NCBI GenBank assembly: GCA_963169695.1
Contig: CAUJDS010000076.1
Coordinates: 14,452-46,451, forward strand
Length of the DNA: 32,000 nt
Source: Bdellovibrionota bacterium
Lineage (GTDB): Bacteria > Bdellovibrionota > UBA1018 > CAUJDS01
Reading direction: 5' to 3'
Both the position numbers and the translations under genes were made by a program. The notes beneath the pieces are model-generated. The model had not been told where the DNA came from and did no database searches. It saw only the letters and a program-made list of their open reading frames with translations. Shown piece by piece: positions 5,059-22,654 of the stretch. The first letter of the stretch is position 1, and the number at the start of each line of letters is the position of its first letter.

Positions 5059-5237
5059 AATAAAATCCTTAACTTATATCCAAGCACCAGTATTCCCGAC
5101 AAAAACAGTCTTATAACAAGATTCTCGCAGTGAGTCCAGAATTTTCTGGCTTCCTCGAAGTCCCGAATCCATTGAGTTTTATACCATACTAAAATTGACC
5201 GTTATTTACAGTTGTGCTAAGCAAAGCCGAGGTCCAA

Positions 5238-8274: not shown

Positions 8275-9102
8275 TTAGAGCAATTGCAACGCTTTATTAG
8301 GCGCTGAATTTGCTTGAGCTAGAACGGAGATTCCTGCGTGGCTCAGAATGTTCTCACGAGTGAGTTCTGAGGTTGCAAGAGCGATGTCCGTGTCTGCAAT
8401 TCGGCTGCGAGCTTGAGACTGCATTTCTTGAGAAATTCTCAAGTTATTGACCGATGATTGCAGCTTATTCTGCATGGCTCCAAGGTTAGCTCGACCGGCA
8501 TTGAGCCTGTCGAACGCCTTGTCCACTGATTCGAGCATCTCTCTAGCTGAATCCTTAGATTCGGTAGAGGCACCATTGATTCCCAATGTATCCGTGCTGA
8601 GATCGTTCTCGCTGACTTTGAATACGACGCGAGACTCTTCACCCGATCGGATACCAACTTGGAACTCAAGGTCCTTGCCGCCACTGCTAAGCAGAGGAGT
8701 ACCGTTGAATTCTGTAACTTTTGCTATGCGATCTACTTCATCCTTCAAAGACTGAACTTCTTTGTCGATGAAACCTCGCTCGGTGTCGCCAATGGTGTCC
8801 GAAGCAGCTTGAATCGCAAGTTCGCGCATACGAACGAGGATGTTGCTAGCTTCAAACATTCCACCTTCTGCTACTTGCACGAGAGAAATGCCGTCATTCG
8901 CATTTCTTTCTGCTTGAGCAGTGGATCGCAACTGAGCACGCATGTTTTCACTAATGGACAAGCCTGCGGCATCGTCACCAGCATTGATGATTCGATTTCC
9001 TGAGGCAATTCTTTGATATTGCTTCGATTGCTTTTCACCCGTAGACGCCAATTGTCTTTGAGTTGCCAGCGAAGCGGTATTGGTCGCTATTCTTAAGCCC
9101 AT
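8275..9102 (-). CDS. fliC: flagellin (short, about 275 aa, lacking a large variable domain)
   Basis: MGLRIATNTASLATQRQL...GNRIINAGDDAAGLSISENMRAQLRS...ANDGISLVQVAEGG N-terminus and C-terminal ...RIADTDIALATSELTRENILSHAGISVLAQANSAPNKALQLL are canonical flagellin D0/D1. SD AAGGAG lies 8 nt upstream. Confidence 0.96.
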   Translation of the reverse strand: MGLRIATNTASLATQRQLASTGEKQSKQYQRIASGNRIINAGDDAAGLSISENMRAQLRSTAQAERNANDGISLVQVAEGGMFEASNILVRMRELAIQAASDTIGDTERGFIDKEVQSLKDEVDRIAKVTEFNGTPLLSSGGKDLEFQVGIRSGEESRVVFKVSENDLSTDTLGINGASTESKDSAREMLESVDKAFDRLNAGRANLGAMQNKLQSSVNNLRISQEMQSQARSRIADTDIALATSELTRENILSHAGISVLAQANSAPNKALQLL

Positions 9103-9483: not shown

Positions 9484-10314
9484 TTAGATTAGCTTGAGAG
9501 CTAACTGACTATTGGCGTTCGCTTGACCGAGGACCGACGTACCAGCGTTAGCAAGAATGTTATTCTTGGTAAGCTCAGATACTTCAGACGCGATGTCGGC
9601 ATCATAGATGCGACTTCGGGCAGCGGACAAGTTTTCGTCATAGATCTTCAAGTTGTTGATGCTCGACTCTAATCGATTCTGAAGTGCACCCAGGTGAGCG
9701 CGGTTTTCAGAAAGTTTAGAGATCGACTTGTCGATCATGTCTAGGTTGTTTTGAGCAGACTCTTTCGTTAGTGCCGAGACATCGGAGAGTCCCAGTGACT
9801 CAAGTCCGGTCTGTGTCTCAGTCGTATTGTAGACGAAGCGGTCATGCTCTGGGTTGTTATGTGTACCCACTTGGATTTCAACAATACCACCTTCACCCGA
9901 AAGCAAGGCACGGCCGTTGAATTCCGTCGTCTTAGAGATACGATCCACTTCATTCTTCAACTGCTGAACCTCCTTGTCGACAAAGCCTCGCTCGGTGTCG
10001 CCAATCGTGTCAGAAGCAGCCTGAATAGAAAGCTCTCTGAAACGAATCAGAATATTTCCAACTTCGTTGAGGCCCCCTTCAGCTACTTGAACCATCGATA
10101 CGCCGTCTTGGGCGTTTCGAACGTCCTGACGAATCGAACGAACTTGCGCTCGCATTGTTTCAGAAATCGCCAAGCCAGCGGCATCGTCAGCAGCTCGAGT
10201 AATTCGAGCACCTGATGCCAATCGCTCTTGAGTACGACCAACTTGATTGTTGGTGTTACCAAGATGACGCTGCGCAGCAATTGACTGCGTATTTGTCGCA
10301 ATTCTCATTCCCAT
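9484..10314 (-). CDS. fliC: flagellin (second tandem paralogue, about 276 aa)
   Basis: MGMRIATNTQSIAAQRHL...ARITRAADDAAGLAISETMRAQVRS...AQDGVSMVQVAEGG and C-terminal ...RIYDADIASEVSELTKNNILANAGTSVLGQANANSQLALKLI. Start chosen at ATG 10314..10312, 5 nt after AGGAG. The track's GTG at 10320 overlaps the SD. Confidence 0.96.
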   Translation of the reverse strand: MGMRIATNTQSIAAQRHLGNTNNQVGRTQERLASGARITRAADDAAGLAISETMRAQVRSIRQDVRNAQDGVSMVQVAEGGLNEVGNILIRFRELSIQAASDTIGDTERGFVDKEVQQLKNEVDRISKTTEFNGRALLSGEGGIVEIQVGTHNNPEHDRFVYNTTETQTGLESLGLSDVSALTKESAQNNLDMIDKSISKLSENRAHLGALQNRLESSINNLKIYDENLSAARSRIYDADIASEVSELTKNNILANAGTSVLGQANANSQLALKLI

Positions 10315-10421
10315 ACACACTCCTATAAAGAAGTATACATACCAAATTACTTTGGTATATTTACTATTTGTTTCGATAATTTACTGGATATGCTGTACCC
10401 AGAAAAACCATCTTGTTGACT

Positions 10422-10448
10422 ATTTCGGTATGTTACTAAGAAACTTTA
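10422..10448 (-). promoter_or_regulatory. sigma28 (FliA)-type promoter of flagellin gene 9484..10314
   Basis: Minus strand reads TAAAGTTT-CTTAGTAACAT(11 nt)-ACCGAAAT. The enteric consensus is TAAAGTTT-N11-GCCGATAA, so the -35 is exact and the CCGA core is present in the -10. The leader is about 100 nt. Confidence 0.6.
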
Positions 10449-10477: not shown

Positions 10478-11299
10478 CTAGAGATCAGAGAACTCGGGGT
10501 CAATTTCTAAGCCTGCTTCGACATCCCAGTTGGTATCGAATTCATCGACCGGATCCTGGGCCATTGCCGAGCCGGAAGTAGGACTAGGCGCTGCAACCCT
10601 AGCTGGAGCCACAGGGGTCGGCTCTGCCATTACTGGAACACGAAGCCCGTACTTCTCAAGCACTGACCCGGTCTGTTCAGCTGGCCGTCTCCAAATCGAA
10701 GAAGGATCTGGGCCCGTCTCAACTAGAAGCGCGGTCATATCAGGCGAAAGCGTTAGTGACTGGTAGAAAACTTGTTCACTCAATTTGCGATACTCGTGGA
10801 TCGCCCAACGAAGGTAACGAGTGTCTTGAAATTCCTTCTGAAATGCTCGAGCAGTAGGAATCAAGGTGCTAAACGCCGACAAAACCTGTTTCTGCTTTTC
10901 GAGTATAGATTCCGTTTTTTCTAGCGAGGTGTGCAACTGCCTAAGGCCATCATAAAAGCACCAGTGCGCCTTGACGGGTTCATCAGCCACCCACTCCAGG
11001 GCACCTCGATCTCTTTCGTCCCGACTGACGGTTTTCTCATTGAGTGTCTGGAGCACTTTCTCACACCCCTTCCAGACGTCCGGACTAGGGACGTCTGGGC
11101 CTAGGAATACCGCTTCCAGATCAGCCCACTCATACCCAGAAGGATGACGCACTCCGGCAATTTCCGGGACCACCGGAAGTGGCTCTAATGGCGGAACTTC
11201 CTTCGTAGTCGAGCAAGACGCTATGGTAAATCCAATGCTCATCATCAGGAACAATCTAGCAATTTCAGATAGATACATTGTTCGTACCATTTCAGTCAA
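10478..11299 (-). CDS. hypothetical lipoprotein (start uncertain: TTG 11299, ATG 11290 or ATG 11278)
   Basis: Lipoprotein signal (..LFLMMSIGFTIAS|C), a Pro-rich linker and an acidic C-terminus (DPVDEFDTNWDVEAGLEIDPEFSDL). No family recognised. A sigma28-like promoter abuts the 5' end. Confidence 0.65.
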   Translation of the reverse strand: MTEMVRTMYLSEIARLFLMMSIGFTIASCSTTKEVPPLEPLPVVPEIAGVRHPSGYEWADLEAVFLGPDVPSPDVWKGCEKVLQTLNEKTVSRDERDRGALEWVADEPVKAHWCFYDGLRQLHTSLEKTESILEKQKQVLSAFSTLIPTARAFQKEFQDTRYLRWAIHEYRKLSEQVFYQSLTLSPDMTALLVETGPDPSSIWRRPAEQTGSVLEKYGLRVPVMAEPTPVAPARVAAPSPTSGSAMAQDPVDEFDTNWDVEAGLEIDPEFSDL

Positions 11300-11348: not shown

Positions 11349-11375
11349 TCAAGCCCCCGGCCAAAAAGCCGAAAA
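11349..11375 (+). promoter_or_regulatory. sigma28-type promoter for the seven-gene operon 11412..18571
   Basis: Plus strand reads TCAA-GCCCCCGGCCAAAAA(15 nt)-GCCGAAAA. This is the same TCAA-N15-GCCGA architecture as the flagellin promoter at 9349..9375. It ends 37 nt before ATG 11412, which is preceded by GAAGGTG. Confidence 0.55.
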
Positions 11376-11411
11376 GTCTAATGAGGACAAAAGGATAATG
11401 AAGGTGCCTCG

Positions 11412-12599
11412 ATGATGTTTTTCAAAATGAACGTCGCAAGCGGTGCGAAAATTTCTCTCTTTTTTGGGATGGCGGTATTCCTTTTGCACCTCTTTGCCTA
11501 CGCTGGCGACGACACAAGCCCCGCAATTAATCCTCCAGCGGAAGAACAACAACTTCCAAAATCCGAGGGAGCAAAATCGCAACTGAAAGCTCCAGCAACC
11601 AGTACTCACAGCAGAAATTTCTATCAAGTCCTGGAAGATGTACTTGGGGATTTTGAGTACGACCTCAACAATGGGCAAGTCCAAGGCCTAAAGGGGCTCG
11701 CGATACGCTCTATTGCCACCAGTGAAAACGTACCACCTTCATTCAAAGACCACATTGACCTCTTGATCAAAGAACGCGTTTTGAGTTCAACCAAGAACAA
11801 GATCATTAATTGCATTCAGTGTCGTTCTCAAAATGCCGTACTCAACGGAGACCAAGTTACCATCTCATCTCCGCAATCCAATCCTGCAGAGCTCAATCGG
11901 ATTGCCAAACAAATGGGCATCGATCACTTCATGGACGTCGCATTTGCCTACCAACCGAATGGCCTCATTTTATCGCTCAGTATTTCTGAAACGGACGGCA
12001 GTGATTCCGTGATTTGGTCACGAAGTTACAACTCTGAAACCTCGCGAGCGTCAGCATTTCGAAGAGGGGTTGACTACAACCAACTCGACGAAGCCAGAAA
12101 GAGCGTTGAGTACCAGCCGACCGTAGTGTATCGCCCAACGCTTTACTACCTCTTTGAGAACGATACGACGGGTTACGTGGGCACACTGGGCTTCGCTTTC
12201 CGAATGGTGGAACGCTATGACAACCGCAAAAAAGAAGTGGGATTTGAACTGAACTACCTCATGGACAGCGGATCTCTTGTCGGAAGCACGAGCACTTCTG
12301 ACTCTGTTTTTCGCAGCTTCAATATTACGCTCTTATTTGTTCATTCCTGGAATTTGATCGGTGACGTTGAATCTTACAATCAGGTGAGAGGCAGCGTCTT
12401 CACTGCAGTAGGAGGCACTTACGGATCAGGTTTCCTTGGAGCAGTTGTTCGTGGTGGATATGAGTGGCGCCTAGGCAAGCATTGGGCAGTGCAGGGTCTT
12501 TTGGGGTACCGTCCACAGGCTTCAAAATTTCTAAACGGGGTAGCATCTGGGTCCGTTTCTGGCTTTGAATTCGGAGTGGGGATCAGTGCACTGTACTAA
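11412..12599 (+). CDS. predicted outer-membrane protein: FlgO/CsgG/LpoB-like alpha-beta domain fused to a C-terminal beta-barrel
   Basis: Signal peptide (..FFGMAVFLLHLFAYA|G). The N-domain (LKGLAIRSIATSENVPPSFKDHIDLLIKERVLS ... AELNRIAKQMGIDHFMDVAFAYQPNGLILSLSISETDGSDSVIWSRSY) fits the recalled CsgG/FlgO/LpoB-type pattern. The C-terminal ~170 aa have alternating amphipathic strands and end in ..GFEFGVGISALY (aromatic terminus typical of OMPs). Confidence 0.6.
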   Translation: MMFFKMNVASGAKISLFFGMAVFLLHLFAYAGDDTSPAINPPAEEQQLPKSEGAKSQLKAPATSTHSRNFYQVLEDVLGDFEYDLNNGQVQGLKGLAIRSIATSENVPPSFKDHIDLLIKERVLSSTKNKIINCIQCRSQNAVLNGDQVTISSPQSNPAELNRIAKQMGIDHFMDVAFAYQPNGLILSLSISETDGSDSVIWSRSYNSETSRASAFRRGVDYNQLDEARKSVEYQPTVVYRPTLYYLFENDTTGYVGTLGFAFRMVERYDNRKKEVGFELNYLMDSGSLVGSTSTSDSVFRSFNITLLFVHSWNLIGDVESYNQVRGSVFTAVGGTYGSGFLGAVVRGGYEWRLGKHWAVQGLLGYRPQASKFLNGVASGSVSGFEFGVGISALY

Positions 12600-13299
12600 G
12601 AAGATCATACTCGCACTCAAGCTCTTCGGACTTTACGCACTTGGCGCCACAGCATGCTCGTCTATCCTAAGTTCATCCGATGATGGACAAGCTGGCGCAC
12701 CGATAGACAATCCTTTTGGAAATTTTTATGAGGAATCCAATAAATCCAATCAGGGCGTCATTTTGCGCTCCCGCAAAGGGGCTCAGACCGTCGAAGTAGA
12801 ACTCCCAAAAGAAGGCCACGACCGTACAAACTTTGTCATACCTATGACTGCCGGATCTTTTCAACCACCGGCCAACCAAACGGCTAGTGCCCAAAACTAT
12901 TCTCATTACCGCTCCGGCCTATCCGACCGAGAAATTGCCGGGACTTTTCCAAAAGGAAGCCCCGAGCAAGTCCAAAAACGTTCTGAAATGGAACGAGATT
13001 TGGGTCTTATTCCTTCTCAGAATGATTCTCCAACCAACGATCAAAGCTATTTGGGATCCATCGATCAAGTGAAGATTCTGTATCGTCAGGGCCGGTACGA
13101 GGCTGGCCTTATTGAAATTGACCAGATACTGCGCCGCTATCCAACGGATCCGAGACTGCACGAAATGCGTGGCACTCTTTTGGATCGAATGGGCCAAAAG
13201 GAACTGGCCCGACAAGCTTGGAATCAGTCCTTAGAACTTGAACCCAATAACGAAGGACTCAAGAGATTTCTCACTCGTAGAATTGCGAGCAAACCATGA
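12586..13299 (+). CDS. TPR-repeat lipoprotein
   Basis: GTG 12586 lies 9 nt after GGAG and gives VHCTKKIILALKLFGLYALGATA|C (lipobox). The C-terminus carries TPR motifs (ILYRQGRYEAGLIEIDQILRRYPTDPRLHEMRGTLLDRMGQKELARQAWNQSLELEPNN). It overlaps the upstream gene by 14 nt and the downstream gene by ATGA. Confidence 0.7.
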   Translation: MHCTKKIILALKLFGLYALGATACSSILSSSDDGQAGAPIDNPFGNFYEESNKSNQGVILRSRKGAQTVEVELPKEGHDRTNFVIPMTAGSFQPPANQTASAQNYSHYRSGLSDREIAGTFPKGSPEQVQKRSEMERDLGLIPSQNDSPTNDQSYLGSIDQVKILYRQGRYEAGLIEIDQILRRYPTDPRLHEMRGTLLDRMGQKELARQAWNQSLELEPNNEGLKRFLTRRIASKP

Positions 13300-15608
13300 A
13301 GATAAGAAATCTAGTTTCGCTTCTTGTGGCGTCCATGCTAATTTCTTCCACTTCATTCGCAACACCAGAAGCATCGCTTGAAGCACTCAATCTCAAGACC
13401 AATGACGAGGTTTTGAAAATCATAAAACCTCTCATGGATAAGTACTGCAAGGACAGCTGCCAGGTACTCAGCGCAAAGCCTGAAATTAAACTTCAAGACA
13501 CCGAAGAAACCGCACCCGGATTTGATGAAATCGCGCCACAGGAAGCCCTCAATTACAAGCCAGCCCTGGTGACTGTAGATGTTCTGGTAGATGAAATTGT
13601 AGGTCAAGTCACCCTTTCGCATCTTTTTGGTATCATACAAGAACACCTGAGCATACTTCCGTACCCTGTTATCTTGAATGAAAGGCGCAAGAAATTCCCG
13701 CAACCCTTGACGTCTGTTCAAAAAATGGCGGAACTGCGCAATAAAGTGGCCACGGACTTTCGGCAGAAAATTGAAGAGCTTTTTCGTGAATTCTGTCCGA
13801 AACAATGTATTCTGGCAGACCTAGATGTTTCATTGCAACAGCGCAATTTAGAAGAAGCCCAATACAACGCTAGCGGAGAATACATTACGGACGGAGATAC
13901 CTCTGCCAAGATCAATAAAATTTCCGGCCAAATTCTCTTCGATACGACCCTTACTCCGGATGAACAAACCGCCATCTTCGAAATGGCTCAACTCAAAACT
14001 AATTCCTACAAAAGCGTCAATCTTCAAGCAAAGAGCCGCTCTTTTCCCCATCCCGAACCCTATTCGGAAGATGGTTCGAATTTGGCATATGGTCGCATGG
14101 GCGGCAAGTACAGAGGATTGAGTTCGCAAGAGAGCAAGACTCAGAAGTCTGACTCAAAGAATTCTCAGCAGACGGATCGCAGGCTTTCTTCTTCGAGCAA
14201 TAACTCTCAGACGAATCAATCCAACAGTAAGACATCACAAGAATCCCAATTCAATAAAACTCAAAACGAAAGTGCCGAGAAATCCGAAAGTTATCAACGT
14301 ACTGAGCGAATTGAGCGAGTTGAAAGTGGCGACGCGGTTCAGGCCGAATTGAAGCGGCTTTCTGTATGGGGAGTCATCTTTGCGTGTTCAGTGCTTTCTC
14401 TTCTCATCTTTATAGCATTGGCCACCTATGCACCACGATCCAAGAAATCGAGCGAAAATTCACTTCTGCAGTGGATCCAAAAGTCGCCTAAAGGATCAAA
14501 AGAGCAGCTACCAGCCAAGACTGGGCCTAAGTCATCCAATGATTCCATTGCGCGTCGCTACGAAATTGACAACCTCATAGATGAATTGACTAGGATCTTT
14601 GCAGAACATCCCAAGGTTGCCAAGCACGCCTTCACTAGAGTTCTCACGGAAGAAGGAGTCGAAATCACAGCCGCCTATATATCAATCTTGGGCGAAAGCA
14701 TCGTACTTGATCTCCTCAAGGATCCCAGCCTGCAGAATGACGTCAATGAACTCACCGAATACTACGCTAAGAACACGCTGGAATTGAAAGACGAAGATAA
14801 ACTCGAGCTGCTCAAGAAGCTTCACAATCGTGCAATTGCATCTAAGCTTCAAGTGATTGGCAATCGCTCTTCTAACGCATTTGATTTCTTAGTGGAGATG
14901 GACGGCCTTCAAATTCTTGAAATGATTCAGAATGAATCCCTTACAGTAAAGGCAATCGTACTAACTCAATGTGATACGCAAAAGCGAGCTATTATCTACT
15001 CACACTGGGACGACGACGCTCGCGCCAAGATTCTAAAAGAATTATCTCGAATTGATCACCTTCCTCGAAATTATATTTATAACGTTTCTAATGCTCTACG
15101 TCGAAAGCGGCAAGACAATCCTCGCCTCAATACCGAGGCCCTTCCTGGTTCCGAAGTACTGGTGGGCCTATTAGAAAAGTCTTCCTTTGGGCAGCAACAA
15201 CAAGTCGTGATGGACCTAGAACAGAACAATCCTGAGAGTGCACGCGTACTCAAGAGCAAACTTGTTAGCATCGACACGCTACGCTACCTCCGCGACTCCC
15301 AGTTGCTCGAAGTCGTGCTCAGTCTCAAACACGAGGAGCTGCTTGCATTCCTCAAGGGCGCACCAGACCATATTCGCAAAACCATATTTGACAAGTCACC
15401 CAAAGATTTGGCCGAGGAAATTCAGGATGAGTTGACCATGGTCAGTCCGCTCAACCGCGACACCTACCAGGTAGTGGAACGTAAGATTCTCAATCGGGTA
15501 CGCCTCATGGCAAACGACGGACTCATCAATCTCATTGAAACCAACGAACGCATGTTTGCCGAAAGTCCCGCCAACCATGCCGGAGCTAGGAGGGCCGCAG
15601 GATGGTAG
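13296..15608 (+). CDS. bitopic membrane protein: periplasmic duplicated C-x3-C module, low-complexity linker, one TM, cytoplasmic FliG-like (N/M/C) region
   Basis: Signal peptide MKIRNLVSLLVASMLISSTSFA|TPEA. TM LSVWGVIFACSVLSLLIFIALATYA (nt ~14358-14432). C-terminal LLAFLKGAPDHIRKTIFDKSPKDLAEEIQDELTMVSPLNRDTYQVVERKILNRVRLMANDGLINL is colinear with recalled E. coli FliG [65 protein letters not shown]. The FliG-middle-like segment is ILEMIQNESLTVKAIVLTQCDTQKRAIIYSHWDDDARAKILKELSRI. Confidence 0.7.
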   Translation: MKIRNLVSLLVASMLISSTSFATPEASLEALNLKTNDEVLKIIKPLMDKYCKDSCQVLSAKPEIKLQDTEETAPGFDEIAPQEALNYKPALVTVDVLVDEIVGQVTLSHLFGIIQEHLSILPYPVILNERRKKFPQPLTSVQKMAELRNKVATDFRQKIEELFREFCPKQCILADLDVSLQQRNLEEAQYNASGEYITDGDTSAKINKISGQILFDTTLTPDEQTAIFEMAQLKTNSYKSVNLQAKSRSFPHPEPYSEDGSNLAYGRMGGKYRGLSSQESKTQKSDSKNSQQTDRRLSSSSNNSQTNQSNSKTSQESQFNKTQNESAEKSESYQRTERIERVESGDAVQAELKRLSVWGVIFACSVLSLLIFIALATYAPRSKKSSENSLLQWIQKSPKGSKEQLPAKTGPKSSNDSIARRYEIDNLIDELTRIFAEHPKVAKHAFTRVLTEEGVEITAAYISILGESIVLDLLKDPSLQNDVNELTEYYAKNTLELKDEDKLELLKKLHNRAIASKLQVIGNRSSNAFDFLVEMDGLQILEMIQNESLTVKAIVLTQCDTQKRAIIYSHWDDDARAKILKELSRIDHLPRNYIYNVSNALRRKRQDNPRLNTEALPGSEVLVGLLEKSSFGQQQQVVMDLEQNNPESARVLKSKLVSIDTLRYLRDSQLLEVVLSLKHEELLAFLKGAPDHIRKTIFDKSPKDLAEEIQDELTMVSPLNRDTYQVVERKILNRVRLMANDGLINLIETNERMFAESPANHAGARRAAGW

Positions 15609-16120
15609 GCACTTCAGAAGGAAAACCAACCTTAGAGATCCTGAAAAATATTCAGCTCTTTAAGGTTTTTACTGATTCGGAACTTCAACAGCTCCTTGCC
15701 ATGGGACAATCTGAATCGCACCAATCGTATTCTAATATTGTGATCGAGGGAGAGCTATCCTGGAGCCTCTATCTCATTCTCCAAGGCACCGTCGGCATCT
15801 TCAAGACTAATCCGCTTAGCGAGAACTCTTATGATATTGGCCAACTCAAAGAGGGAAGCTTCTTTGGCGAAATGTCTCTGGTCGATGAGAATGGCCGCTC
15901 AGCGACTGTAAGAGCACTAACCGATTGCGTTGTGTTTGTCATATCCAAGGAAGCATTTTCTACTTTTCTCAATAGCTCCACTGAACGACGTACTCGATTT
16001 TACGAAAAATGCATCAAGACTCTGGTCGATCGACTCCGAGAACTGAACGATGGATATGTGATCAGTCAGTATCAACTCTGGAAATCGGCGCTAAAAAAAG
16101 ATTCCGAGGAGGCCGCCTAA
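15602..16120 (+). CDS. stand-alone cyclic nucleotide-binding (CAP effector domain) protein
   Basis: 172 aa. Canonical CNB fold motifs: LFKVFTDSELQQL..., IVIEGE....LYLILQGTVGIF, phosphate-binding cassette FFGEMSLVDENGRSATVRALTDC. AGGAGG SD. The ATG overlaps the upstream stop region by 7 nt, and its stop TAA abuts the motA ATG. Confidence 0.88.
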   Translation: MVGTSEGKPTLEILKNIQLFKVFTDSELQQLLAMGQSESHQSYSNIVIEGELSWSLYLILQGTVGIFKTNPLSENSYDIGQLKEGSFFGEMSLVDENGRSATVRALTDCVVFVISKEAFSTFLNSSTERRTRFYEKCIKTLVDRLRELNDGYVISQYQLWKSALKKDSEEAA

Positions 16121-16903
16121 ATGAACCTTTCATCATTCTTCGGTGTTTTGCTAGGAATTGGAATTGTCGTTGCAGCGATTCATGAAAGTGGAATGCAGGC
16201 TGCATTCTTTCTAAATTTTCATGGTGTGGTGATTGTCGTAGGTGGAACACTTGCAGCGGCAAGTATTAGTTTTCCACTCTCAAAAGTTCTATCTCTTCTA
16301 AGGGTATTTTTTCAACGGGTTCTAGGAAGGAATAAAATCGACTACCAATCGATCATTACCCAACTACTTGAGGCGAATCGAAAGTTCAACCTCGGTCAAG
16401 GGTCGGTAGCTGAGTTGACTGCTGGAATACAACACAGCTTCCTTAAGGAAGCGATTGAGCTTGCAGCAACAGGTGTCCTGACTCAAAAAGAAGTGAGGCA
16501 AGTCCTTGAGCAGCGTGTAAAAACTATGGAAAATCGCTATATGTACGAAGCCAATATGTTTCGTATCCTAGGGCGATTTCCTCCAGCGTTTGGACTGCTC
16601 GCCACAACCCTAGGAATGATAGCGCTACTACAAAATCTTGGTCAGCCTGGCGCAGAAAAGCTCATCGGACCAGCCATGTCTATAGGACTCGTCGGTACCC
16701 TCTATGGAATAGCACTAGCCAACCTCGTTTTTCTGCCCATCGCAGAGAATCTCACTGTGAGAACCAAGGAAGAAATGGAATTGCGTCGGATGATCATAGA
16801 GGGAGCTGTCTTACTTAAGGCGCAAGTGAACCCGATGTCTATGCGAGAGAGCCTCAATTCCTTCCTTGCACCAGGAGAGCGCGTACTGAGAAGGGCTGCG
16901 TAG
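16121..16903 (+). CDS. motA: flagellar stator protein MotA/PomA family
   Basis: 260 aa. Four TM segments with a ~100-aa cytoplasmic loop between TM2 and TM3. Conserved PPAFGLLATTLGMI (TM3 Pro) and IGPAMSIGLVGTLYGIALANLVFLPIA (TM4 Pro). GAGGAGG SD. Confidence 0.9.
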   Translation: MNLSSFFGVLLGIGIVVAAIHESGMQAAFFLNFHGVVIVVGGTLAAASISFPLSKVLSLLRVFFQRVLGRNKIDYQSIITQLLEANRKFNLGQGSVAELTAGIQHSFLKEAIELAATGVLTQKEVRQVLEQRVKTMENRYMYEANMFRILGRFPPAFGLLATTLGMIALLQNLGQPGAEKLIGPAMSIGLVGTLYGIALANLVFLPIAENLTVRTKEEMELRRMIIEGAVLLKAQVNPMSMRESLNSFLAPGERVLRRAA

Positions 16904-16911
16904 GAACACCT

Positions 16912-17739
16912 ATGGCACTTTCATTCTTAAAAAAGAAGAATCCGGAATCGGATTCGTCGGAGAAACTGCCTGACCAGCCTCATGATTCTTATCAATCAGA
17001 AGGAGATGAATCCAATTGGCTGGTGTCCTACGCGGATATGATGACGCTACTCTGTGCTTTTTTCATCATGATGTTTAGTATGTCGACCCTGCAGACGCCA
17101 AAGTTCGAGAAGGCCAGGGAAGAGGTTTCAAAGCACTTTGGAGGCGGCTATGACAAGCCCAACGCCCAACTTTCTAAGGTGGTGCAAGATTCAATTGCTT
17201 CGGCCCAATTGGGTAAGGAAGTCACAGTAAGATCGAATCCGGCAGGTGTTTCTATAAGCTTTGAATCCACGCTCTTCTTTGACAGCCTAGGCGCGGCTGT
17301 CAAATCAGATGGCCAGAAAGTTCTCACAGAACTTGCTCGATCAGTCTTGAGATACGCCAAAGACCATCAAATGAAATACAAAATTGTAGTGGAAGGGCAT
17401 ACAGACGCTCAGCCCATCTTAAGCGGCACCTTTCTATCAAATTGGGAACTATCTGGCGCTCGAGCCTCTCGAGTGGTCGACATTTTCTTGGCCCAAGGAT
17501 TTCAACCCGCTGACTTCATGCCAGTAGGGTACGGATCGACCCGACCTCGTGAGCCAAGCCGAGATTCAAACGGAAACTGGATTCCAGAAAATCTTGCCAA
17601 AAATAGGCGTGTGGTCCTGCGCATCCTAGATTCACAAGAAAACTCCATCCCTTGGAATATGGACTTGGACCTAGCTATTGATCCGCCACCCGAATCGGCA
17701 AAGTCTGCCGCCATTGCGCTTCCACCCCCTTCTCACTGA
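16912..17739 (+). CDS. motB: flagellar stator protein MotB (OmpA-like peptidoglycan-binding C-terminus)
   Basis: WLVSYADMMTLLCAFFIMMF (channel Asp in YADMMTLL). OmpA-like VVEGHTDAQP...SNWELSGARASRVVDIFL...GYGSTRP...NRRVVLRI. Confidence 0.9.
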   Translation: MALSFLKKKNPESDSSEKLPDQPHDSYQSEGDESNWLVSYADMMTLLCAFFIMMFSMSTLQTPKFEKAREEVSKHFGGGYDKPNAQLSKVVQDSIASAQLGKEVTVRSNPAGVSISFESTLFFDSLGAAVKSDGQKVLTELARSVLRYAKDHQMKYKIVVEGHTDAQPILSGTFLSNWELSGARASRVVDIFLAQGFQPADFMPVGYGSTRPREPSRDSNGNWIPENLAKNRRVVLRILDSQENSIPWNMDLDLAIDPPPESAKSAAIALPPPSH

Positions 17740-17764
17740 TCCTAGTGAGAAGAGGTCCTGCCGG

Positions 17765-18571
17765 ATGCGATGGAGTTGTCCGCATTGTAAAGTAAGTCAA
17801 AGTATTCCTGACGAACGAGTAGAGGGGGGCTGGTCTTTTGCTCGATGCTACAAGTGCAACGGATATTCTCTCGTGCGCAAGTCTGACGTCAAAACATTTA
17901 AAGTTGCACAACCACCCGAACAAGCCACCGTTCTCAATTCCCATCCCAGCGAAGTACCTCTCATGAGCCGAGAGGCTACTAACCATTTGCAATTGACACT
18001 GAAGAATGCGGCCATTCGATCCGAAAATTTTCAAGAACTGGCAAAGTCTCTTCAGAACCAAGAAGTGAATCAGACTAATGAGGGGCCAAAAAAAGCTATA
18101 AGCGAACGTATGCTTCCCTATGCCATTGGTCTTGCTGGAGCCCTCGCGCTCTTTTCCGGCGCCTACCTATTTATGGAGGGACAGTCTCTTTGGAATAAAG
18201 CACACCATGCAAGCCGAGAAGCCGATCCCATTCCAGTAGAACCTAGCATTGCAGCACCGATCAAAGATGAACTGAAAGAAGCAGCAATGGCCCCTGTTCG
18301 AGAGCCCGTACAGGAATCGGCTCAAGTACCGGAGACCGTCTTCAAACCGGAAGTCATTTATCGCTCTATCGTCATTAAGCCTCTTGCGGACCGCGTAAAT
18401 CTGCGGACTGAGCCAAACGTGCAGGCGGGTATATCCGGTACGGCGACACGTTCGGATCGCTTTACGGTACATCAATGGAAGAGCGACTGGTTTGAGGTTT
18501 CAAACGTGAAATTTCCGGATAAAAAATACTGGATCCGAAACGACTTCGTATCTGTAGCCGAAAATGAATAA
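17765..18571 (+). CDS. zinc-ribbon (MJ0042-type) / single TM / C-terminal SH3b-like domain protein
   Basis: The track ORF starts at 17678 and overlaps motB. ATG 17765 gives MRWSCPHCKVSQSIPDERVEGGWSFARCYKCNGYSL (CxxC...CxxC). TM is MLPYAIGLAGALALFSGAYLF. The C-terminus VNLRTEPNVQAGISGTATRSDRFTVHQWKSDWFEVSNVKFPDKKYWIRNDFV resembles bacterial SH3. Confidence 0.65.
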   Translation: MRWSCPHCKVSQSIPDERVEGGWSFARCYKCNGYSLVRKSDVKTFKVAQPPEQATVLNSHPSEVPLMSREATNHLQLTLKNAAIRSENFQELAKSLQNQEVNQTNEGPKKAISERMLPYAIGLAGALALFSGAYLFMEGQSLWNKAHHASREADPIPVEPSIAAPIKDELKEAAMAPVREPVQESAQVPETVFKPEVIYRSIVIKPLADRVNLRTEPNVQAGISGTATRSDRFTVHQWKSDWFEVSNVKFPDKKYWIRNDFVSVAENE

Positions 18572-18575
18572 ACAG

Positions 18576-20093
18576 CTACCGAGGATTCTGAGGCTTACAA
18601 AGCCAAACTGAGATTGCCTTGCCAGGTACACCCATTCGTTCTTGAATCGGCACAAGTTGATCTTCACAAAAGGAATTTCTGAAGCCAGGCCCTTGGGCAT
18701 AACGTTGGTCCGTAACGTAAATGACTGGTTCGATTAGTGCTGGCCAATCTGTACGGCGCTCTTCACTTAGACCAAGGTCTCTCCAATCCGAAGCTTCTCT
18801 AGCGTCTACTGGCAAGCGCGTTGCAGCGAATTCAGGACCAAGCGCCATAGCTGCTTGTGACAAAGTTTGGTAACGAGATCCGATGACAGGAAGTTGCGAG
18901 GAAAGCCCTTTTGACTTCAAAAATGAGGGAAGAAAGCCCCACCCTCTCAGGTCATTGGATGGATCATGGAGGGGATTAGGTATTTGATTCAAGACGTACT
19001 TCTCAGTCCATCCAACCAAGGGAAGGTGACAACCTAGAAAAACCAATGCGGTTAGAGCAATACTCACTTTCCAAAATCCCTTAAACAATCTATGGAGTGA
19101 AAGTCTTGACCAGTGAGTTGAAAAGAAAAGCATTAGCGGAAACCAAAAGGTCAAACTCCAATGAATTTTATAGTCCGAAAAAAAAGGTTGAAGCCCAAAA
19201 ACAAGAAATGCAGGGAAGAACCAAACCAGTAAATACCTCTGCTCTCTAGGAAGGGGCCACTTTCGACCTGTTCTCATTCGCTCCCAAAGTAACCGAGCCG
19301 AAAAAAGCATGAGAACGGGCCCAGCTACTAAAAATTGCAGAAGCCAAAATCGGAGACCCTGTTGAAGACGAAAGTGCCCCCCCGAGTGCCGCTCCGAAAG
19401 CTGGTAAGCAATAGGGCGCCAATCTTCCTGCCAATTCCAATAGAGCGTAGGCAGCAGTGATAAGCCGATTGATAAAATAGAGAGAAAAAGAAGCCGCTTC
19501 CACCGACCATGCTGAATAAGATTTTTTCTCCAGAGGATCAACGAACCAAAGGCACTGGCAGCTGGCAAGATTCCCGAAAATTTGGACAATAGGACCAAAG
19601 CATAGCCAGCAACGAGGAGAACTTCATTTTGCTTAGTGGGCTCACCCACGATTTCTGCCCAAACGGCGTAGATCAATAAACTCATTCCGAAAAACATCGG
19701 AAGGTCAGGAACACTCATCCACAGCCCCAATACAAATCCAGAGAAAGCAAATACACCTGCGAGCAATCCCCTGAAGGCTTCTCTTTCATCCCGCAAAACC
19801 AGACAGAGCCAGCGGTGGGCAAAAACCAAAATCCCAAAACTGCAAATAGCTGCCCCGAGGCGCATCAATCCGGGAGAAGTGGCAGACCACCCCAGGATGG
19901 CCCCAACCTTTTGAATGAAGTATTGAATCCAAAGTATCATTGGCGGGTGGTACGCAAATCCCCAGCGCCACTCACGAGAAAGCACCCAGTAATAGGCCTC
20001 ATCATCGGAGGGTCCAAGCATTGCCCCATGTAGCCACAGCAGCGTACACAGCCCAAAAAGTAAGTAGGTAGGTTTTTTAATGAAATGCGTCAT
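18576..20093 (-). CDS. GT-C fold glycosyltransferase, family 39 / ArnT-PMT-like
   Basis: 505 aa and polytopic. The first periplasmic loop motif SDDEAYYW is typical of ArnT/PMT_2 enzymes. The start ATG overlaps the upstream M14 gene stop (ATGA). Confidence 0.7.
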   Translation of the reverse strand: MTHFIKKPTYLLFGLCTLLWLHGAMLGPSDDEAYYWVLSREWRWGFAYHPPMILWIQYFIQKVGAILGWSATSPGLMRLGAAICSFGILVFAHRWLCLVLRDEREAFRGLLAGVFAFSGFVLGLWMSVPDLPMFFGMSLLIYAVWAEIVGEPTKQNEVLLVAGYALVLLSKFSGILPAASAFGSLILWRKNLIQHGRWKRLLFLSILSIGLSLLPTLYWNWQEDWRPIAYQLSERHSGGHFRLQQGLRFWLLQFLVAGPVLMLFSARLLWERMRTGRKWPLPREQRYLLVWFFPAFLVFGLQPFFSDYKIHWSLTFWFPLMLFFSTHWSRLSLHRLFKGFWKVSIALTALVFLGCHLPLVGWTEKYVLNQIPNPLHDPSNDLRGWGFLPSFLKSKGLSSQLPVIGSRYQTLSQAAMALGPEFAATRLPVDAREASDWRDLGLSEERRTDWPALIEPVIYVTDQRYAQGPGFRNSFCEDQLVPIQERMGVPGKAISVWLCKPQNPR

Positions 20094-21067
20094 CGAAATA
20101 CGAAATTTCCGGCCTCAGCTCCTATAGCTGGATTGTAATCCGGAACTCGAAATTCAACCACTGCATGCATCCCTTTTTTAAAGGCTTCCCAATAGGAGTT
20201 GGCTTTATCGGGATTGGCAGTAGGCAACTCAAGTGTCAACGTAGGAATACCCCGCTCCTGTCCTGCGTAATTGCCGAGAGAACCTACAAAGTAGCCACCA
20301 GAAACGGCATGGACCTTCGATCGAAGTCGCAAACACTCCCGAACATAATCGTTTGGAAATCGCTTTAACGTCAAAACATTGGGGCCATCATAATCCATAA
20401 AATTCAAAGGCGCGTGAATGGAAAGGATCTTGTTAGGGCGAAAACGGTAAATCAAATTTCTCTGAAAAATGGTTTCCGGCTCTGAATTGGGCGATGCCCC
20501 TGGATTTCGTCGCGGATCAGATCGAAATCGCTGCTTCCATAAAGCCAATGCACTCTTCTTCCAGTCTCGCGTATGAAAATTGCGATTCAAATCCACGCCT
20601 CTCGCATTATATCTCGTTCTCTTATCAAGATAGAAGCCATCTGGATTTACCAATGGTGCAATGATGACTCTCGCTCCCGGTGAATCCTGTGGATGAAGAT
20701 GAAGCCACTCAATGAGCTTGAGGCCCAGGTACAATGGCGTATTTTCATCCGGATGCACCATGGTCAGAACCAGTGTCGTATTATCCGAATCCTCAGGGCC
20801 AAACTCAAAATAGACAAGTGGCCTGCCTAGAATGGATTGGCCACCGACACGAAAAAGGTCCTTGCGAACGCAAACTGGAACCTTCCACCCAAAATCCTGA
20901 ACAGCTTTCTCTAAATTCTTGCACCAGACTTCTCTCTGAGCTTCGAGCTGAGCAGCTTCCTCTCGAGCCCAATTAGGCGAATGGTTACTGCCACCAAAGG
21001 CTAGGTAAGGAATAAAATTTCCAAAAAGGATTCCTAATAGCGCGGCACGACCAAAAGTCCGTCTCAT
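20090..21067 (-). CDS. M14 family zinc carboxypeptidase (MpaA-like murein peptide amidase type)
   Basis: VHPDENTP (HxxE zinc site), LVNPDG, ARGVDLNRNF and ILSIHAP motifs appear in canonical order. Start placed at ATG 21067 (MRRTFGRAALLGILFG.., signal-like), overlapping the dedA stop as ATGA. Confidence 0.75.
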   Translation of the reverse strand: MRRTFGRAALLGILFGNFIPYLAFGGSNHSPNWAREEAAQLEAQREVWCKNLEKAVQDFGWKVPVCVRKDLFRVGGQSILGRPLVYFEFGPEDSDNTTLVLTMVHPDENTPLYLGLKLIEWLHLHPQDSPGARVIIAPLVNPDGFYLDKRTRYNARGVDLNRNFHTRDWKKSALALWKQRFRSDPRRNPGASPNSEPETIFQRNLIYRFRPNKILSIHAPLNFMDYDGPNVLTLKRFPNDYVRECLRLRSKVHAVSGGYFVGSLGNYAGQERGIPTLTLELPTANPDKANSYWEAFKKGMHAVVEFRVPDYNPAIGAEAGNFVFR

Positions 21068-22623: not shown

Positions 22624-22654
22624 TGTGATAAATGCTAGCTCCTTAATACGAAAA

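What the first reader, a model, noticed from the sequence alone, without database searches (positions are those of the whole stretch)
11349..18571. Seven-gene sigma28-driven operon spanning outer membrane to cytoplasm around a MotAB pair
All seven ORFs are on one strand with minimal or negative spacing. Gene 1/2 overlap by 14 nt, gene 2/3 by ATGA and gene 3/4 by 7 nt. Gene 4/5 abut (TAA then ATG), gene 5/6 are 8 nt apart and gene 6/7 are 25 nt apart. The operon is preceded by TCAA-N15-GCCGAAAA, the same architecture as the flagellin promoter in this window. The predicted localisations tile the envelope. There is an OM beta-barrel with a periplasmic FlgO/CsgG-like domain and a TPR lipoprotein. 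There is an IM bitopic protein with a periplasmic domain and a FliG-like cytoplasmic region, and a cytoplasmic cNMP sensor. MotA/MotB form the ion channel with a peptidoglycan anchor, and an IM zinc-ribbon/SH3b protein closes the set. This is more than a plain motAB locus. It looks like a dedicated accessory structure for the stator, comparable in principle to the Vibrio H/T rings or the Campylobacter PflA/PflB disks but with unrelated parts. Alternatively it could be an independent MotAB-powered trans-envelope machine. The zinc-ribbon-TM-periplasmic-domain layout also recalls GltJ-type proteins of the Myxococcus Agl-Glt gliding apparatus.
Basis: partly seen in the sequence, partly recalled or inferred. 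Interest (0 to 1): 0.8.

Follow-up and report, generated by a model that had tools for sequence, protein, structure and literature searches.

The report
MotAB operon with private rotor-like protein
A conserved operon pairs an ordinary-looking flagellar ion motor (MotAB) with an undescribed membrane protein resembling the two flagellar rotor proteins FliF and FliG joined together, plus two outer-membrane partners, so it may be a second small motor or a new motor attachment.

Summary
Seven same-strand genes (11412-18571) overlap or abut exactly as described and follow a sigma-28-like motif. The order is conserved in about 60 related loci at only 40-60% protein identity.

The domain calls are right. 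The key addition concerns gene 3. Its periplasmic part is two tandem FliF-like ring-building modules. A 40-98-residue flexible linker, one TM helix and a full FliG-like N-M-C region follow, so it is a natural FliF/FliG-like chimera.

Five genes form a core: OM barrel protein, TPR lipoprotein, chimera, MotA and MotB. This core recurs in Silvanigrellales and in Bradymonadales-like genomes, in another gene order and away from flagellar genes. In one of these genomes genes 1 and 2 are fused. The cNMP sensor and the Zn-ribbon/SH3 gene are specific to this lineage.

A published genome of this clade (class UBA1018) has canonical fliF/fliG elsewhere and at least five MotA homologues.

Best reading (about 0.45): a dedicated, switchless rotor-stator module linked to the outer membrane and expressed with late flagellar genes. 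A static stator scaffold (about 0.3) is not excluded. I found no description of it in the literature.

The parts
11349..11375 (+). Sigma-28-like promoter motif, TCAA-N15-GCCGAAAA
   Evidence: Only match in the window, 0.06 expected. A related motif lies upstream of gene 1 in 14 of 56 related loci, against 0.015 expected per region. FliA dependence is inferred, not shown.
10478..11299 (-). Divergently transcribed lipoprotein gene (lipobox IASC); a possible extra member
   Evidence: No Pfam or NCBIfam match. Found in 55 of 75 loci, mostly at the same divergent position. Not found next to the distant versions of the module.
11412..12599 (+). Gene 1: signal peptide, periplasmic alpha/beta domain (residues ~70-207) with an invariant CxxC, and a C-terminal 8-stranded outer-membrane barrel ending in ...ALY
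   Evidence: AF2 model, pLDDT 75. Foldseek matches the barrel to OmpW, NspA, OmpA and OmpX, and the N-domain to LpoB-C, TolB-N and PelC. No Pfam family. Homologues sit in the Silvanigrellales (E 1e-33) and Bradymonadales-like (E 1e-17) clusters.
12586..13299 (+). Gene 2: lipoprotein with C-terminal TPR repeats
   Evidence: TPR_2 E 1.5e-7. The lipobox Cys is at least 95% conserved. It is fused to the gene 1 homologue in L080, a 689-aa protein.
13296..15608 (+). Gene 3: FliF/FliG-like chimera, 770 aa
   Evidence: Pfam FliG_M 6e-8 and FliG_C 8e-15. AF2 model, pLDDT 73. Foldseek matches full-length FliG (3hjl, 317 columns, E 4e-8) and the FliF MS-ring (7bk0_B E 9e-5, 6scn_A E 3e-4).
13371..14039 (+). 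Gene 3, periplasmic part: two tandem alpha-beta-beta-alpha-beta modules (residues 26-132 and 138-248), each with a conserved CxxxC
   Evidence: Secondary-structure order in the model. The two halves are homologous (hhalign 97%, E 6e-11). The FliF similarity is at fold level only; sequence comparisons were not significant.
14049..14285 (+). Gene 3, periplasmic low-complexity linker
   Evidence: pLDDT below 50. Length is 40-98 residues in 32 homologues, and 44% of residues are S, N or T. The Bradymonadales-like relative (L080) has a Pro/Ala/Lys-rich linker instead.
14364..14420 (+). Gene 3, single transmembrane helix
   Evidence: Hydropathy 2.64 over 19 residues. It is the end of a long helix, 325-378, in the model.
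14535..15563 (+). Gene 3, cytoplasmic FliG-like N-M-C region
   Evidence: Mapped onto E. coli FliG. K264, D288 and D289 equivalents are kept. The R281 equivalent is acidic in all 69 sequences. EHPQR is degenerate: E-S-L-T...R.
15602..16120 (+). Gene 4: stand-alone cyclic-nucleotide-binding protein
   Evidence: cNMP_binding E 8e-18. The phosphate-binding cassette FGEMSL...RSAT is conserved. The gene is absent from nine loci of one subclade and from the distant clusters.
16121..16903 (+). Gene 5: MotA, PomA/MotP-like
   Evidence: MotA_ExbB 4e-19. NCBIfam MotP 6e-41 and PomA 2e-39, all below the equivalog cut-offs. Closest solved structures are Clostridium MotA and PomA. K/R87, K/R88 and D/E98 are conserved in 66-67 of 67 sequences.
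16912..17739 (+). Gene 6: MotB with plug, channel Asp and OmpA-like peptidoglycan-binding domain
   Evidence: MotB_plug 2e-16 and OmpA 2e-12. The YADMMTLL segment containing the Asp is conserved.
17765..18571 (+). Gene 7: cytoplasmic Zn ribbon, TM helix, Pro-rich linker and periplasmic SH3b-like domain
   Evidence: Zn_ribbon_4 2e-4 and SH3_3 8e-5, both below cut-off. TM at residues 148-166 of the long ORF. Hits at this position in 50 of 75 loci, but many are short or only 22-31% identical, and only 27 relatives align over at least 70% of its length.

Best explanation
The operon encodes a self-contained rotor-stator module that is separate from the canonical flagellar rotor.

Gene 3 has two kinds of ring-forming parts in one chain: FliF-like RBM modules outside the membrane and a FliG-like N-M-C region inside. 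It oligomerises in the inner membrane into a ring or arc. Its FliG-like C-terminal domain is the docking and torque partner for the cytoplasmic face of the co-encoded MotA5B2 units. These units are anchored to peptidoglycan through MotB.

Gene 3's periplasmic heads reach outwards on a 40-98-residue flexible tether. They meet an outer-membrane partner built from gene 1 (barrel plus a TolB-N/LpoB-like domain) and gene 2 (TPR lipoprotein). Proton- or sodium-driven rotation of MotA therefore acts on this private rotor-like protein and is relayed towards the outer membrane.

There is no FliM/FliN switch, because the EHPQR motif is lost. In this lineage the module is transcribed with late flagellar genes from a sigma-28-type promoter. 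It has also gained a cAMP/cGMP-binding regulator (gene 4) and a Zn-ribbon/SH3b protein (gene 7).

Shown: the anatomy, folds, conserved residues, conserved linkage and restricted distribution. Inferred: oligomerisation, the MotA-gene 3 contact, the gene 3-gene 1/2 contact, where in the cell it sits, and its output.
For: (1) Gene 3 aligns structurally to full-length FliG and to the FliF MS-ring. Its periplasmic modules have the RBM order alpha-beta-beta-alpha-beta and are tandem duplicates.

(2) Torque-helix charges are largely kept: K264, D288 and D289 equivalents. The matching MotA charges are conserved: K/R87 and D/E98.

(3) MotAB always travels with genes 1-3. This holds in about 60 loci of this type, in Silvanigrellales, and in three Bradymonadales-like loci (L080, L082, L083) that have enough flank. 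In a fourth short contig (L079) the chimera-like gene directly follows a MotB gene, preceded by a cut ORF that aligns to MotA. Gene order differs between lineages, and these distant loci have no flagellar gene within 10 kb.

(4) Genes 1 and 2 are fused in L080.

(5) The periplasmic domain of gene 3 is rare. It matches 138 clusters among 1.84 billion representatives, and where the rest of the protein was examined it is joined to a FliG-like part.

(6) The published annotation table of FG-1, a member of the same class, lists canonical fliF-fliG in the main flagellar cluster and at least five MotA hits. The canonical rotor and other stators therefore exist elsewhere (PMC13200544).

(7) EHPQR is degenerate in all 69 sequences, whereas the FG-1 canonical FliG keeps NEHPQT.
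Against: No experiment, and no multimer model, shows that gene 3 forms rings or touches MotA.

The FliF likeness rests on one Foldseek run with E about 1e-4. Profile searches did not detect it, and a second structural method was unavailable.

A floppy 40-98-residue linker is a poor shaft for transmitting rotation.

The R281 equivalent is charge-reversed in every member.

Flagellar association is real. There is a sigma-28-like promoter, and flagellin genes lie within 10 kb in 28 of 75 loci. All three host lineages are reported to be flagellated or to carry flagellar genes (PMC13200544, PMC7386786, PMC7188933). That pattern fits a flagellar accessory role equally well.

MotA here is no closer to the MotA of the distant clusters (24-29% identity) than to ordinary flagellar stators. 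No dedicated stator lineage is therefore demonstrated.
Confidence: 0.45

Rival explanations
1. Static scaffold of the flagellar motor. MotAB here are ordinary flagellar stators that turn the canonical FliG ring. Genes 1, 2 and 3 build a non-rotating cage. Its parts are an outer-membrane and periplasmic disk, plus a membrane-anchored cytoplasmic collar whose FliG-like domain holds the outer face of each MotA pentamer. The cage recruits and fixes the stators, as the Vibrio H/T rings, Campylobacter PflA/PflB and FlgX do.
For: There is a sigma-28-like promoter. fliC, fliD and fliS are neighbours, and flagellin genes are nearby in 28 of 75 loci. MotAB are of the canonical flagellar type, with plug and PG-binding domain. 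TPR proteins and TolB-N-like domains are the usual building blocks of known stator scaffolds (PMC13023049 for TPR partners). The host lineages are flagellated, and cells of this class have an unusually thick flagellum of 53 nm (PMC13200544).
Against: A static FliG-like torque helix engaged with a rotating MotA pentamer should hinder rotation. The distant versions of the module lie away from flagellar genes, in 11-gene clusters that also encode further OM barrels and a weak TonB_C-like protein. A complete FliF-plus-FliG-like architecture is more than a clamp would need.
Confidence: 0.3
2. Ton/Tol/Glt-like force transducer, not a ring. Gene 3 acts as a single tether, analogous to TonB, TolA or GltG/J. 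MotA rotation drags or winds its cytoplasmic FliG-like handle. The pull passes through the long periplasmic linker to the gene 1 barrel and its TolB-N-like domain. This energises an outer-membrane process such as surface movement, OM or sheath remodelling, or transport.
For: A long flexible periplasmic linker is kept in the UBA1018-type homologues (S/N/T-rich) and in the one Bradymonadales-like relative read (L080, Pro/Ala/Lys-rich). The gene 1 N-domain resembles TolB-N. The distant clusters add two more OM barrels and a TM/Pro-rich/TonB_C-like protein. Gene 7 has the same general layout.
Against: Known transducers of this kind couple to the motor through a TM helix, and their motors are ExbBD/TolQR-type without a plug or PG anchor. 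Here the motor is a plug-bearing, PG-anchored MotAB. The RBM and FliG folds are ring formers.
Confidence: 0.12
3. cNMP-controlled decoy or brake. The membrane-anchored FliG-like domain competes with the real rotor for this MotAB pair, parking or releasing stators according to the cAMP/cGMP level read by gene 4.
For: The gene 4 cNMP-binding protein sits between gene 3 and motA, with translational coupling, and its binding cassette is conserved. Conserved stator-contact charges would allow competition.
Against: Gene 4 is missing from one subclade and from both distant lineages, while genes 1, 2 and 3 and MotAB persist. A decoy needs neither two RBM modules nor outer-membrane partners.
Confidence: 0.08
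4. No functional unit: neighbouring genes that merely share a strand.
For: None beyond the absence of transcript data.
Against: Start and stop codons overlap. Order is conserved at 40-60% identity in about 60 loci. The core recurs in other lineages, and genes 1 and 2 are fused in one of them.
Confidence: 0.02

Closest known systems
Flagellar rotor FliF (MS-ring) plus FliG, including engineered FliF-FliG fusions (PDB 8z4d; PMC6079021)
   Same: RBM-type periplasmic modules, a membrane anchor, and a FliG N-M-C region with a largely conserved torque helix, encoded next to MotAB. Engineered full-frame FliF-FliG fusions assemble rings (PMC6079021).
   Different: It has a cleavable signal peptide and one TM helix instead of two TM helices. 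It has two duplicated modules and no beta-collar. A disordered linker separates the modules from the membrane. EHPQR is lost and the R281 equivalent is reversed. There is no sequence-level match to FliF. It coexists with a canonical fliF-fliG pair.
Periplasmic and OM stator scaffolds: Vibrio H/T rings (FlgT, FlgO/P, MotX/Y) and Campylobacter PflA/PflB, FlgP and FlgX
   Same: The same building blocks are used: a TPR protein and an OM-anchored protein with a TolB-N-like domain. The genes are encoded with or near stator genes and are expressed with flagellar genes.
   Different: No homology to any of those families was detected. None of them contains a FliG-like or FliF-like protein.
Envelope machines driven by 5:2 ion motors: Ton (ExbBD-TonB), Tol-Pal, Myxococcus Agl-Glt, Bacteroidota GldLM/T9SS
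   Same: An inner-membrane ion motor is combined with a periplasm-spanning tethered protein, OM beta-barrels and TPR proteins. Gene 7 shares GltJ's layout of Zn ribbon, TM helix, Pro-rich linker and small beta domain.
   Different: The motor here is a flagellar-type MotAB with plug and OmpA-like PG anchor, not TolQR/ExbBD/GldLM. The coupling would run through a cytoplasmic FliG-like domain, which none of those systems has.
E-ring proteins FlgY/FlbB/MotE (PMC13023049)
   Same: These are ARM-like (MgtE_N/FliG-like) domain proteins associated with the motor. Some are membrane-anchored and have TPR partners.
   Different: Their ARM-like domain is periplasmic and encircles the MS-ring. In gene 3 the FliG-like part is cytoplasmic by topology (signal peptide, Cys-containing N-domain, TM helix) and matches FliG_M and FliG_C proper.
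Multiple MotAB pairs of Bdellovibrio bacteriovorus (Morehouse et al. 2011, cited in PMC12827227)
   Same: The same phylum, with several stator sets per genome.
   Different: The scan of one genome per species found the gene 3 family only in uncultured lineages and FG-2, not in B. bacteriovorus. That scan used two narrow peptide patterns. The Morehouse paper itself could not be read.

Membership tests
Flagellar-type stator MotA/MotB (PomAB/MotPS-like, 'FIT' class of PMC12505986) | MotA_ExbB channel domain with a long cytoplasmic loop carrying the conserved basic/acidic pair (E. coli R90/E98) | tested here: met
   PF01618 4e-19. K/R87 in 67 of 67 and D/E98 in 66 of 67 sequences. Closest solved chains are flagellar MotA and PomA.
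Flagellar-type stator MotA/MotB (PomAB/MotPS-like, 'FIT' class of PMC12505986) | MotB with plug segment, channel Asp in the TM helix and OmpA-like peptidoglycan-binding domain | tested here: met
   MotB_plug 2e-16 and OmpA 2e-12. The YADMMTLL segment is conserved.
Flagellar-type stator MotA/MotB (PomAB/MotPS-like, 'FIT' class of PMC12505986) | Reaches a curated equivalog score for a named stator (MotA, PomA, MotP, MotB, MotS, MotD) | tested here: not met
   Best scores are 140 bits against a cut-off of 394 (MotP) and 142 bits against 283 (MotD).
Flagellar-type stator MotA/MotB (PomAB/MotPS-like, 'FIT' class of PMC12505986) | Drives rotation of the flagellar rotor | not testable with these tools
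   Needs genetics or imaging.
FliG (flagellar rotor/switch protein) | FliG_M and FliG_C domains, with whole-protein fold match to FliG | tested here: met
   PF14841 6e-8 and PF01706 8e-15. Foldseek 3hjl, 317 of 321 columns.
FliG (flagellar rotor/switch protein) | EHPQR motif of the middle domain (FliM binding) | tested here: not met
   E547-S-L-T...R585. The H, P and Q positions are replaced in all 69 sequences.
FliG (flagellar rotor/switch protein) | Five conserved torque-helix charges (E. coli K264, R281, D288, D289, R297) | tested here: inconclusive
   K264, D288 and D289 equivalents are kept. The R281 equivalent is D/E in 68 of 69 sequences, with a basic neighbour in 57 of 69. R297 is shifted by one position.
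FliG (flagellar rotor/switch protein) | Soluble cytoplasmic protein bound to the FliF C-terminus; reaches the TIGR00207 equivalog score | tested here: not met
   Membrane-anchored, with a signal peptide and one TM helix. 63.7 bits against a cut-off of 226.7.
FliF (MS-ring protein) | RBM (alpha-beta-beta-alpha-beta) periplasmic ring-building modules | tested here: met
   Topology in the AF2 model. Foldseek 7bk0_B E 9e-5, 6scn_A E 3e-4, 8z4g. This is fold level only.
FliF (MS-ring protein) | Sequence membership (YscJ_FliF family), two TM helices, beta-collar | tested here: not met
   No Pfam or NCBIfam hit. No PDB profile hit. hhalign probability 0.4%. One TM helix and no collar.
FliF (MS-ring protein) | Forms a closed ring in the inner membrane | not testable with these tools
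   No multimer prediction was available.
Vibrio H/T-ring and Campylobacter PflA/PflB scaffolds | Homology to FlgT, FlgO, FlgP, MotX, MotY, PflA or PflB | tested here: not met
   No such family matched genes 1, 2, 3 or 7. The only links are generic TPR matches and a TolB-N/LpoB-like fold.
Myxococcus Agl-Glt gliding machinery | TolQR-type motor AglRQS; GltG/J with a TonB_C domain | tested here: not met
   The motor is MotAB with plug and OmpA domain. Gene 7 ends in an SH3-like domain, not TonB_C.
Zorya anti-phage system | ZorA with a long C-terminal tail, plus ZorC/ZorD or ZorE | tested here: not met
   No ZorA, ZorC or ZorD match. Only generic ZorB/MotB similarity.

The most novel reading that the evidence does not exclude
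This is an autonomous, switchless minimal rotary motor. It consists of a ring of a natural FliF/FliG-like chimera turned by its own MotAB units and coupled to an outer-membrane barrel/TPR complex. It is a flagellum-derived or flagellum-ancestral rotor-stator pair without export apparatus, rod or filament. It has been kept in three bacterial lineages for a non-swimming, outer-membrane-directed task.
Probability: 0.3. Interest if true: 0.95.

Novelty: new variant of a known kind. Interest (0 to 1): 0.8.

Why it matters
The rotor (FliF/FliG) and stator (MotAB) of the flagellum are textbook partners that, as far as I found, are known only inside the complete flagellum. Here a second protein with the folds of both rotor proteins is permanently linked to its own stator genes and to outer-membrane partners. 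No export apparatus, rod or switch gene lies in the module or in the up to 10 kb fetched on either side of it, and the linkage holds in three separate lineages.

If it rotates on its own, it would be the simplest rotor-stator unit known. It would also be a living model for how the flagellar motor could have been assembled from, or stripped down to, a torque-generating core.

If it is part of the flagellar motor, it is a new kind of stator-holding structure, one that uses a FliG copy on the outside of the stators. That would bear directly on how high-torque motors, and possibly sheathed ones, hold and regulate their stator units.

Either way it gives concrete, testable candidates in a poorly known predatory clade (class UBA1018). 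Relatives in orders that have cultured members (Silvanigrellales, Bradymonadales) may make it tractable.

Tried and rejected
- Sequence-level tests of FliF homology were negative. The periplasmic profile against PDB found nothing. hhalign against E. coli FliF gave probability 0.4%, although the short matched stretch is the start of RBM3.
- A strict sigma-28 pattern found only 4 of 57 loci. A crude intergenic window found 12 of 45. The relaxed pattern with a background estimate is the figure used.
- The B. bacteriovorus three-stator paper could not be read.
- Taxon names for the distant clusters could not be obtained from cluster look-ups. The only name is one partial homologue labelled Persicimonas sp., so 'Bradymonadales-like' is an inference.
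- The FG-1 annotation table could not be mapped gene by gene onto the cluster. Its second FliG-like hit (04250) is not next to a KO-called MotA or MotB. I use the table only for counts.
- Defence system (Zorya, Pycsar) rejected: only generic MotB and cNMP-domain similarity.
- Riboswitch, other RNA or tRNA in the window: none.
- A link between the conserved C-terminal [KR][KR]VAGW motif of gene 3 and the presence of gene 4 was rejected. A shortened form of the motif persists where gene 4 is absent.
- A dedicated MotA lineage co-evolving with gene 3 is not supported by pairwise scores. No proper phylogeny was made.

Full report
**1. The observation**

The window carries seven + strand ORFs between 11412 and 18571. 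Independent gene calls on public contigs holding identical DNA use the same starts.
- Genes 1 and 2 overlap by 14 nt (GTG start at 12586).
- Genes 2 and 3 overlap by ATGA.
- Genes 3 and 4 overlap by 7 nt.
- Genes 4 and 5 abut.
- Genes 5 and 6 are separated by 8 nt.
- Genes 6 and 7 are separated by 25 nt (ATG at 17765).

The operon ends 4 nt from a convergent gene.

TCAA-N15-GCCGAAAA lies at 11349-11375. It is the only match in 32 kb to TMAA-N15-GCCGAWAA, against 0.06 expected. The flagellin gene 9484-10320 has TAAA-N15-ACCGAAAT. The second flagellin gene does not show such a motif.

The surroundings are late flagellar genes: fliS, fliD and two flagellin genes.

**2. The parts**

MotA (gene 5) and MotB (gene 6) are of the canonical flagellar type.
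- MotA carries the MotA_ExbB domain. It is closest to Clostridium MotA and Vibrio PomA.
- The basic/acidic pair that contacts FliG in E. coli is conserved across 67 orthologues, as K/R87 and D/E98.
- MotB has the plug, the channel Asp and an OmpA-like peptidoglycan-binding domain.
- None of the named equivalog models is reached.

Gene 4 is a stand-alone cyclic-nucleotide-binding domain with an intact phosphate-binding cassette.

Gene 2 is a lipoprotein with C-terminal TPR repeats.

Gene 7 has a cytoplasmic Zn ribbon, one TM helix, a Pro-rich linker and an SH3b-like end. Its Pfam scores are below cut-off, but the CxxC pairs are conserved.

Gene 1 has no family assignment. Its AlphaFold model (pLDDT 75) shows an alpha/beta periplasmic domain and a C-terminal eight-stranded barrel.
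- The barrel matches OmpW, NspA, OmpA and OmpX.
- The N-domain matches LpoB-C, TolB-N and PelC.

**3. Gene 3 is the key**

The model (pLDDT 73) shows the following, in order:
- a signal peptide;
- two alpha-beta-beta-alpha-beta modules (residues 26-132 and 138-248);
- a disordered stretch;
- a long helix ending in the single TM segment (residues 357-375);
- about 340 residues of helical repeats.

Foldseek aligns the cytoplasmic part over essentially all of full-length FliG (3hjl, 317 columns, E 4e-8). It aligns the periplasmic part to the FliF MS-ring (7bk0_B E 9e-5; 6scn_A E 3e-4; Vibrio S-ring 8z4g) and more weakly to YscD.

The two periplasmic modules are tandem duplicates (hhalign 97%, E 6e-11). 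Each has a conserved CxxxC.

The linker is 40-98 residues long in 32 homologues and is 44% S, N or T.

Mapping onto E. coli FliG with column counts from 69 sequences gives this picture:
- The K264, D288 and D289 equivalents are kept.
- The R281 equivalent is always acidic, with a mostly basic neighbour.
- The EHPQR motif that binds FliM is reduced to E-S-L-T...R.

Gene 3 is therefore a natural FliF/FliG-like chimera that has probably lost the link to the switch complex. The FliF likeness is structural only. Pfam, a PDB profile search and hhalign against E. coli FliF did not detect it, and a second structural method was unavailable.

**4. Conservation**

A search with gene 3 found more than 100 full-length relatives at 45-60% identity, all from Bdellovibrionota metagenome bins.

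A scan of one genome per species returned 73 loci. In these loci and two fetched earlier, the order gene 1, gene 2, gene 3, MotA, MotB is kept wherever the flank suffices.
- Gene 4 is absent from nine loci of one subclade.
- Gene 7 gives a hit at its position in 50 of 75 loci, but many hits are short or weak.
- A divergently transcribed lipoprotein gene (10478-11299) is present in 55 loci.
- Flagellin genes lie within 10 kb in 28 loci.

A sigma-28-like motif precedes gene 1 in 14 of 56 distinct loci, against 0.015 expected per region.

The hits include bin UBA1018, genus CAIRTR01 and strain FG-2. A 2026 paper places these in class UBA1018 ('Bdellonasia'). These are uncultured vibrioid cells with a single thick (53 nm) polar flagellum (PMC13200544). 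The window most likely comes from that class; this is an inference.

**5. Wider distribution**

An exhaustive profile search with the periplasmic domain alone found only 138 clusters among 1.84 billion representatives.
- The strong hits mostly share the 730-830-aa architecture, and many of the remainder are fragments.
- A few are about 970 aa.
- A weak tail of 570-610-aa proteins has one module, and most of those scanned also carry a weak MgtE_N- or FliG_C-like match.

The about 970-aa form occurs in a Silvanigrellales bin. Its gene order is gene 1-like, gene 2-like, MotA, MotB, gene 3-like, among housekeeping genes.

The short form sits in conserved 11-gene clusters. These add two OM barrels, further unknown proteins and a TM/Pro-rich/weak TonB_C protein, and they have no flagellar gene within 10 kb. 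In one of them the gene 1 and gene 2 homologues are a single 689-aa protein. The only named relative of this form is a partial protein from a Persicimonas sp. bin, order Bradymonadales.

A five-gene core therefore persists across three lineages despite shuffled order. The fusion of genes 1 and 2 argues that those two proteins work together.

**6. Is this MotAB the flagellar stator?**

This cannot be settled here. All three host groups are reported to be flagellated or to carry flagellar genes (PMC13200544, PMC7386786, PMC7188933).

The published annotation table of FG-1, a member of the same class, lists a canonical fliF-fliG-fliL...fliA cluster. It also lists at least five MotA hits and a second FliG-like hit. 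The canonical rotor and other stators therefore exist besides this module. I could not map that table onto the cluster gene by gene.

MotA here is not closer to the MotA of the distant clusters than to ordinary stators.

**7. Explanation**

The most economical structural reading rests on three points. Gene 3 unites two ring-forming elements of the flagellar rotor. It keeps most stator-contact charges. It never separates from a MotAB pair.

On that basis gene 3 is the private partner of that MotAB. Genes 1 and 2 are the outer-membrane end of the assembly, reached through the flexible tether. I put this at 0.45.

The main rival, at 0.3, is a static scaffold for ordinary flagellar stators. It is favoured by the sigma-28 motif, the flagellar neighbourhood, and the TPR and TolB-N-like building blocks. 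It is disfavoured by the non-flagellar context of the distant clusters and by the difficulty of clamping a rotating MotA ring with a torque helix.

A Ton/Tol/Glt-like pulling tether (0.12) is suggested by the conserved long linker and by the TonB-like genes in the distant clusters. It can be seen as a non-ring variant of the best explanation.

A cNMP-controlled decoy (0.08) is weakened because gene 4 is dispensable in evolution.

**8. Known or new**

Full-text searches found no description of a membrane-anchored FliF/FliG-like protein linked to MotAB.
- A 2025 survey of MotAB relatives does not mention one.
- One preprint notes unexplained motAB and fliG homologues in Elusimicrobiota that lack flagellar structural genes. 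I could not follow that lead.

Defence systems and RNA elements were excluded.

I file it as a new variant of a known kind: an envelope assembly driven by, or attached to, an ion motor. There is a 0.3 chance that it is something categorically new, namely an autonomous minimal rotary motor.

Noticed in passing
window 15588-15605 (last six codons of gene 3); relatives in L001-L075: The extreme C-terminus of gene 3 ends in a conserved basic-basic-hydrophobic-small-Gly-Trp motif. It is KKVAGW in most relatives and RRAAGW here. It is shortened to ...RKVG or ...RRYG in the subclade that lacks gene 4. It looks like a docking peptide, and its partner is unknown.
   Followed up: partly
window 11811-11822 (gene 1, C134/C137); 13446-13460 and 13794-13808 (gene 3): Conserved cysteine pairs occur in the periplasmic domains of both gene 1 (invariant CxxC) and gene 3 (one CxxxC per module). 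They may be disulfides or a shared metal or redox feature linking the two proteins.
   Followed up: no
window 18576-21675, minus strand: A downstream block is conserved next to the operon in many relatives. It holds a 505-aa polytopic membrane protein without a family (39 loci) and an MpaA-like M14 murein-peptide amidase (31 loci); in the window and in L001 a VTT/DedA protein follows. This is a possible cell-wall or envelope link to the module, but it may simply be conserved neighbourhood.
   Followed up: partly
L080 6226-8295: In a 7.5-Mb Bradymonadales-like genome the homologues of gene 1 and gene 2 are one 689-aa protein. The same cluster has two extra OM barrel genes and a TM/Pro-rich/weak TonB_C gene.
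   Followed up: yes
supplementary file 10 of PMC13200544 (FG-1 genome): A genome of the same class lists at least five MotA (K02556) hits but only two MotB hits at the KO threshold. Several of the MotA hits cluster within about 35 genes (02662-02696). This is an unusually rich set of stator paralogues.
   Followed up: partly
window 8275-9102 and 9484-10320, minus strand: There are two tandem flagellin genes. Only the second has a recognisable sigma-28-like motif upstream (10422-10448). The first has none within about 160 nt, so it may be read through or use another promoter.
   Followed up: partly
window 5214-8174: A large (986-aa) S46-family peptidase gene is inserted between the fliD-side genes and the flagellin genes.
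   Followed up: no
window 21700-24028: A XerC/D-type tyrosine recombinase gene (minus strand) overlaps head to head by about 70 nt with the longest ORF of a GidA/TrmFO-like gene. The local G+C rises to 0.55, the highest in the window.
   Followed up: no
bioRxiv 10.1101/2022.07.08.499144, section 13: Elusimicrobiota that lack flagellar structural genes are reported to carry motAB and fliG homologues of unknown role. If those FliG homologues are membrane-anchored like gene 3, that would be direct evidence for a flagellum-independent function.
   Followed up: no
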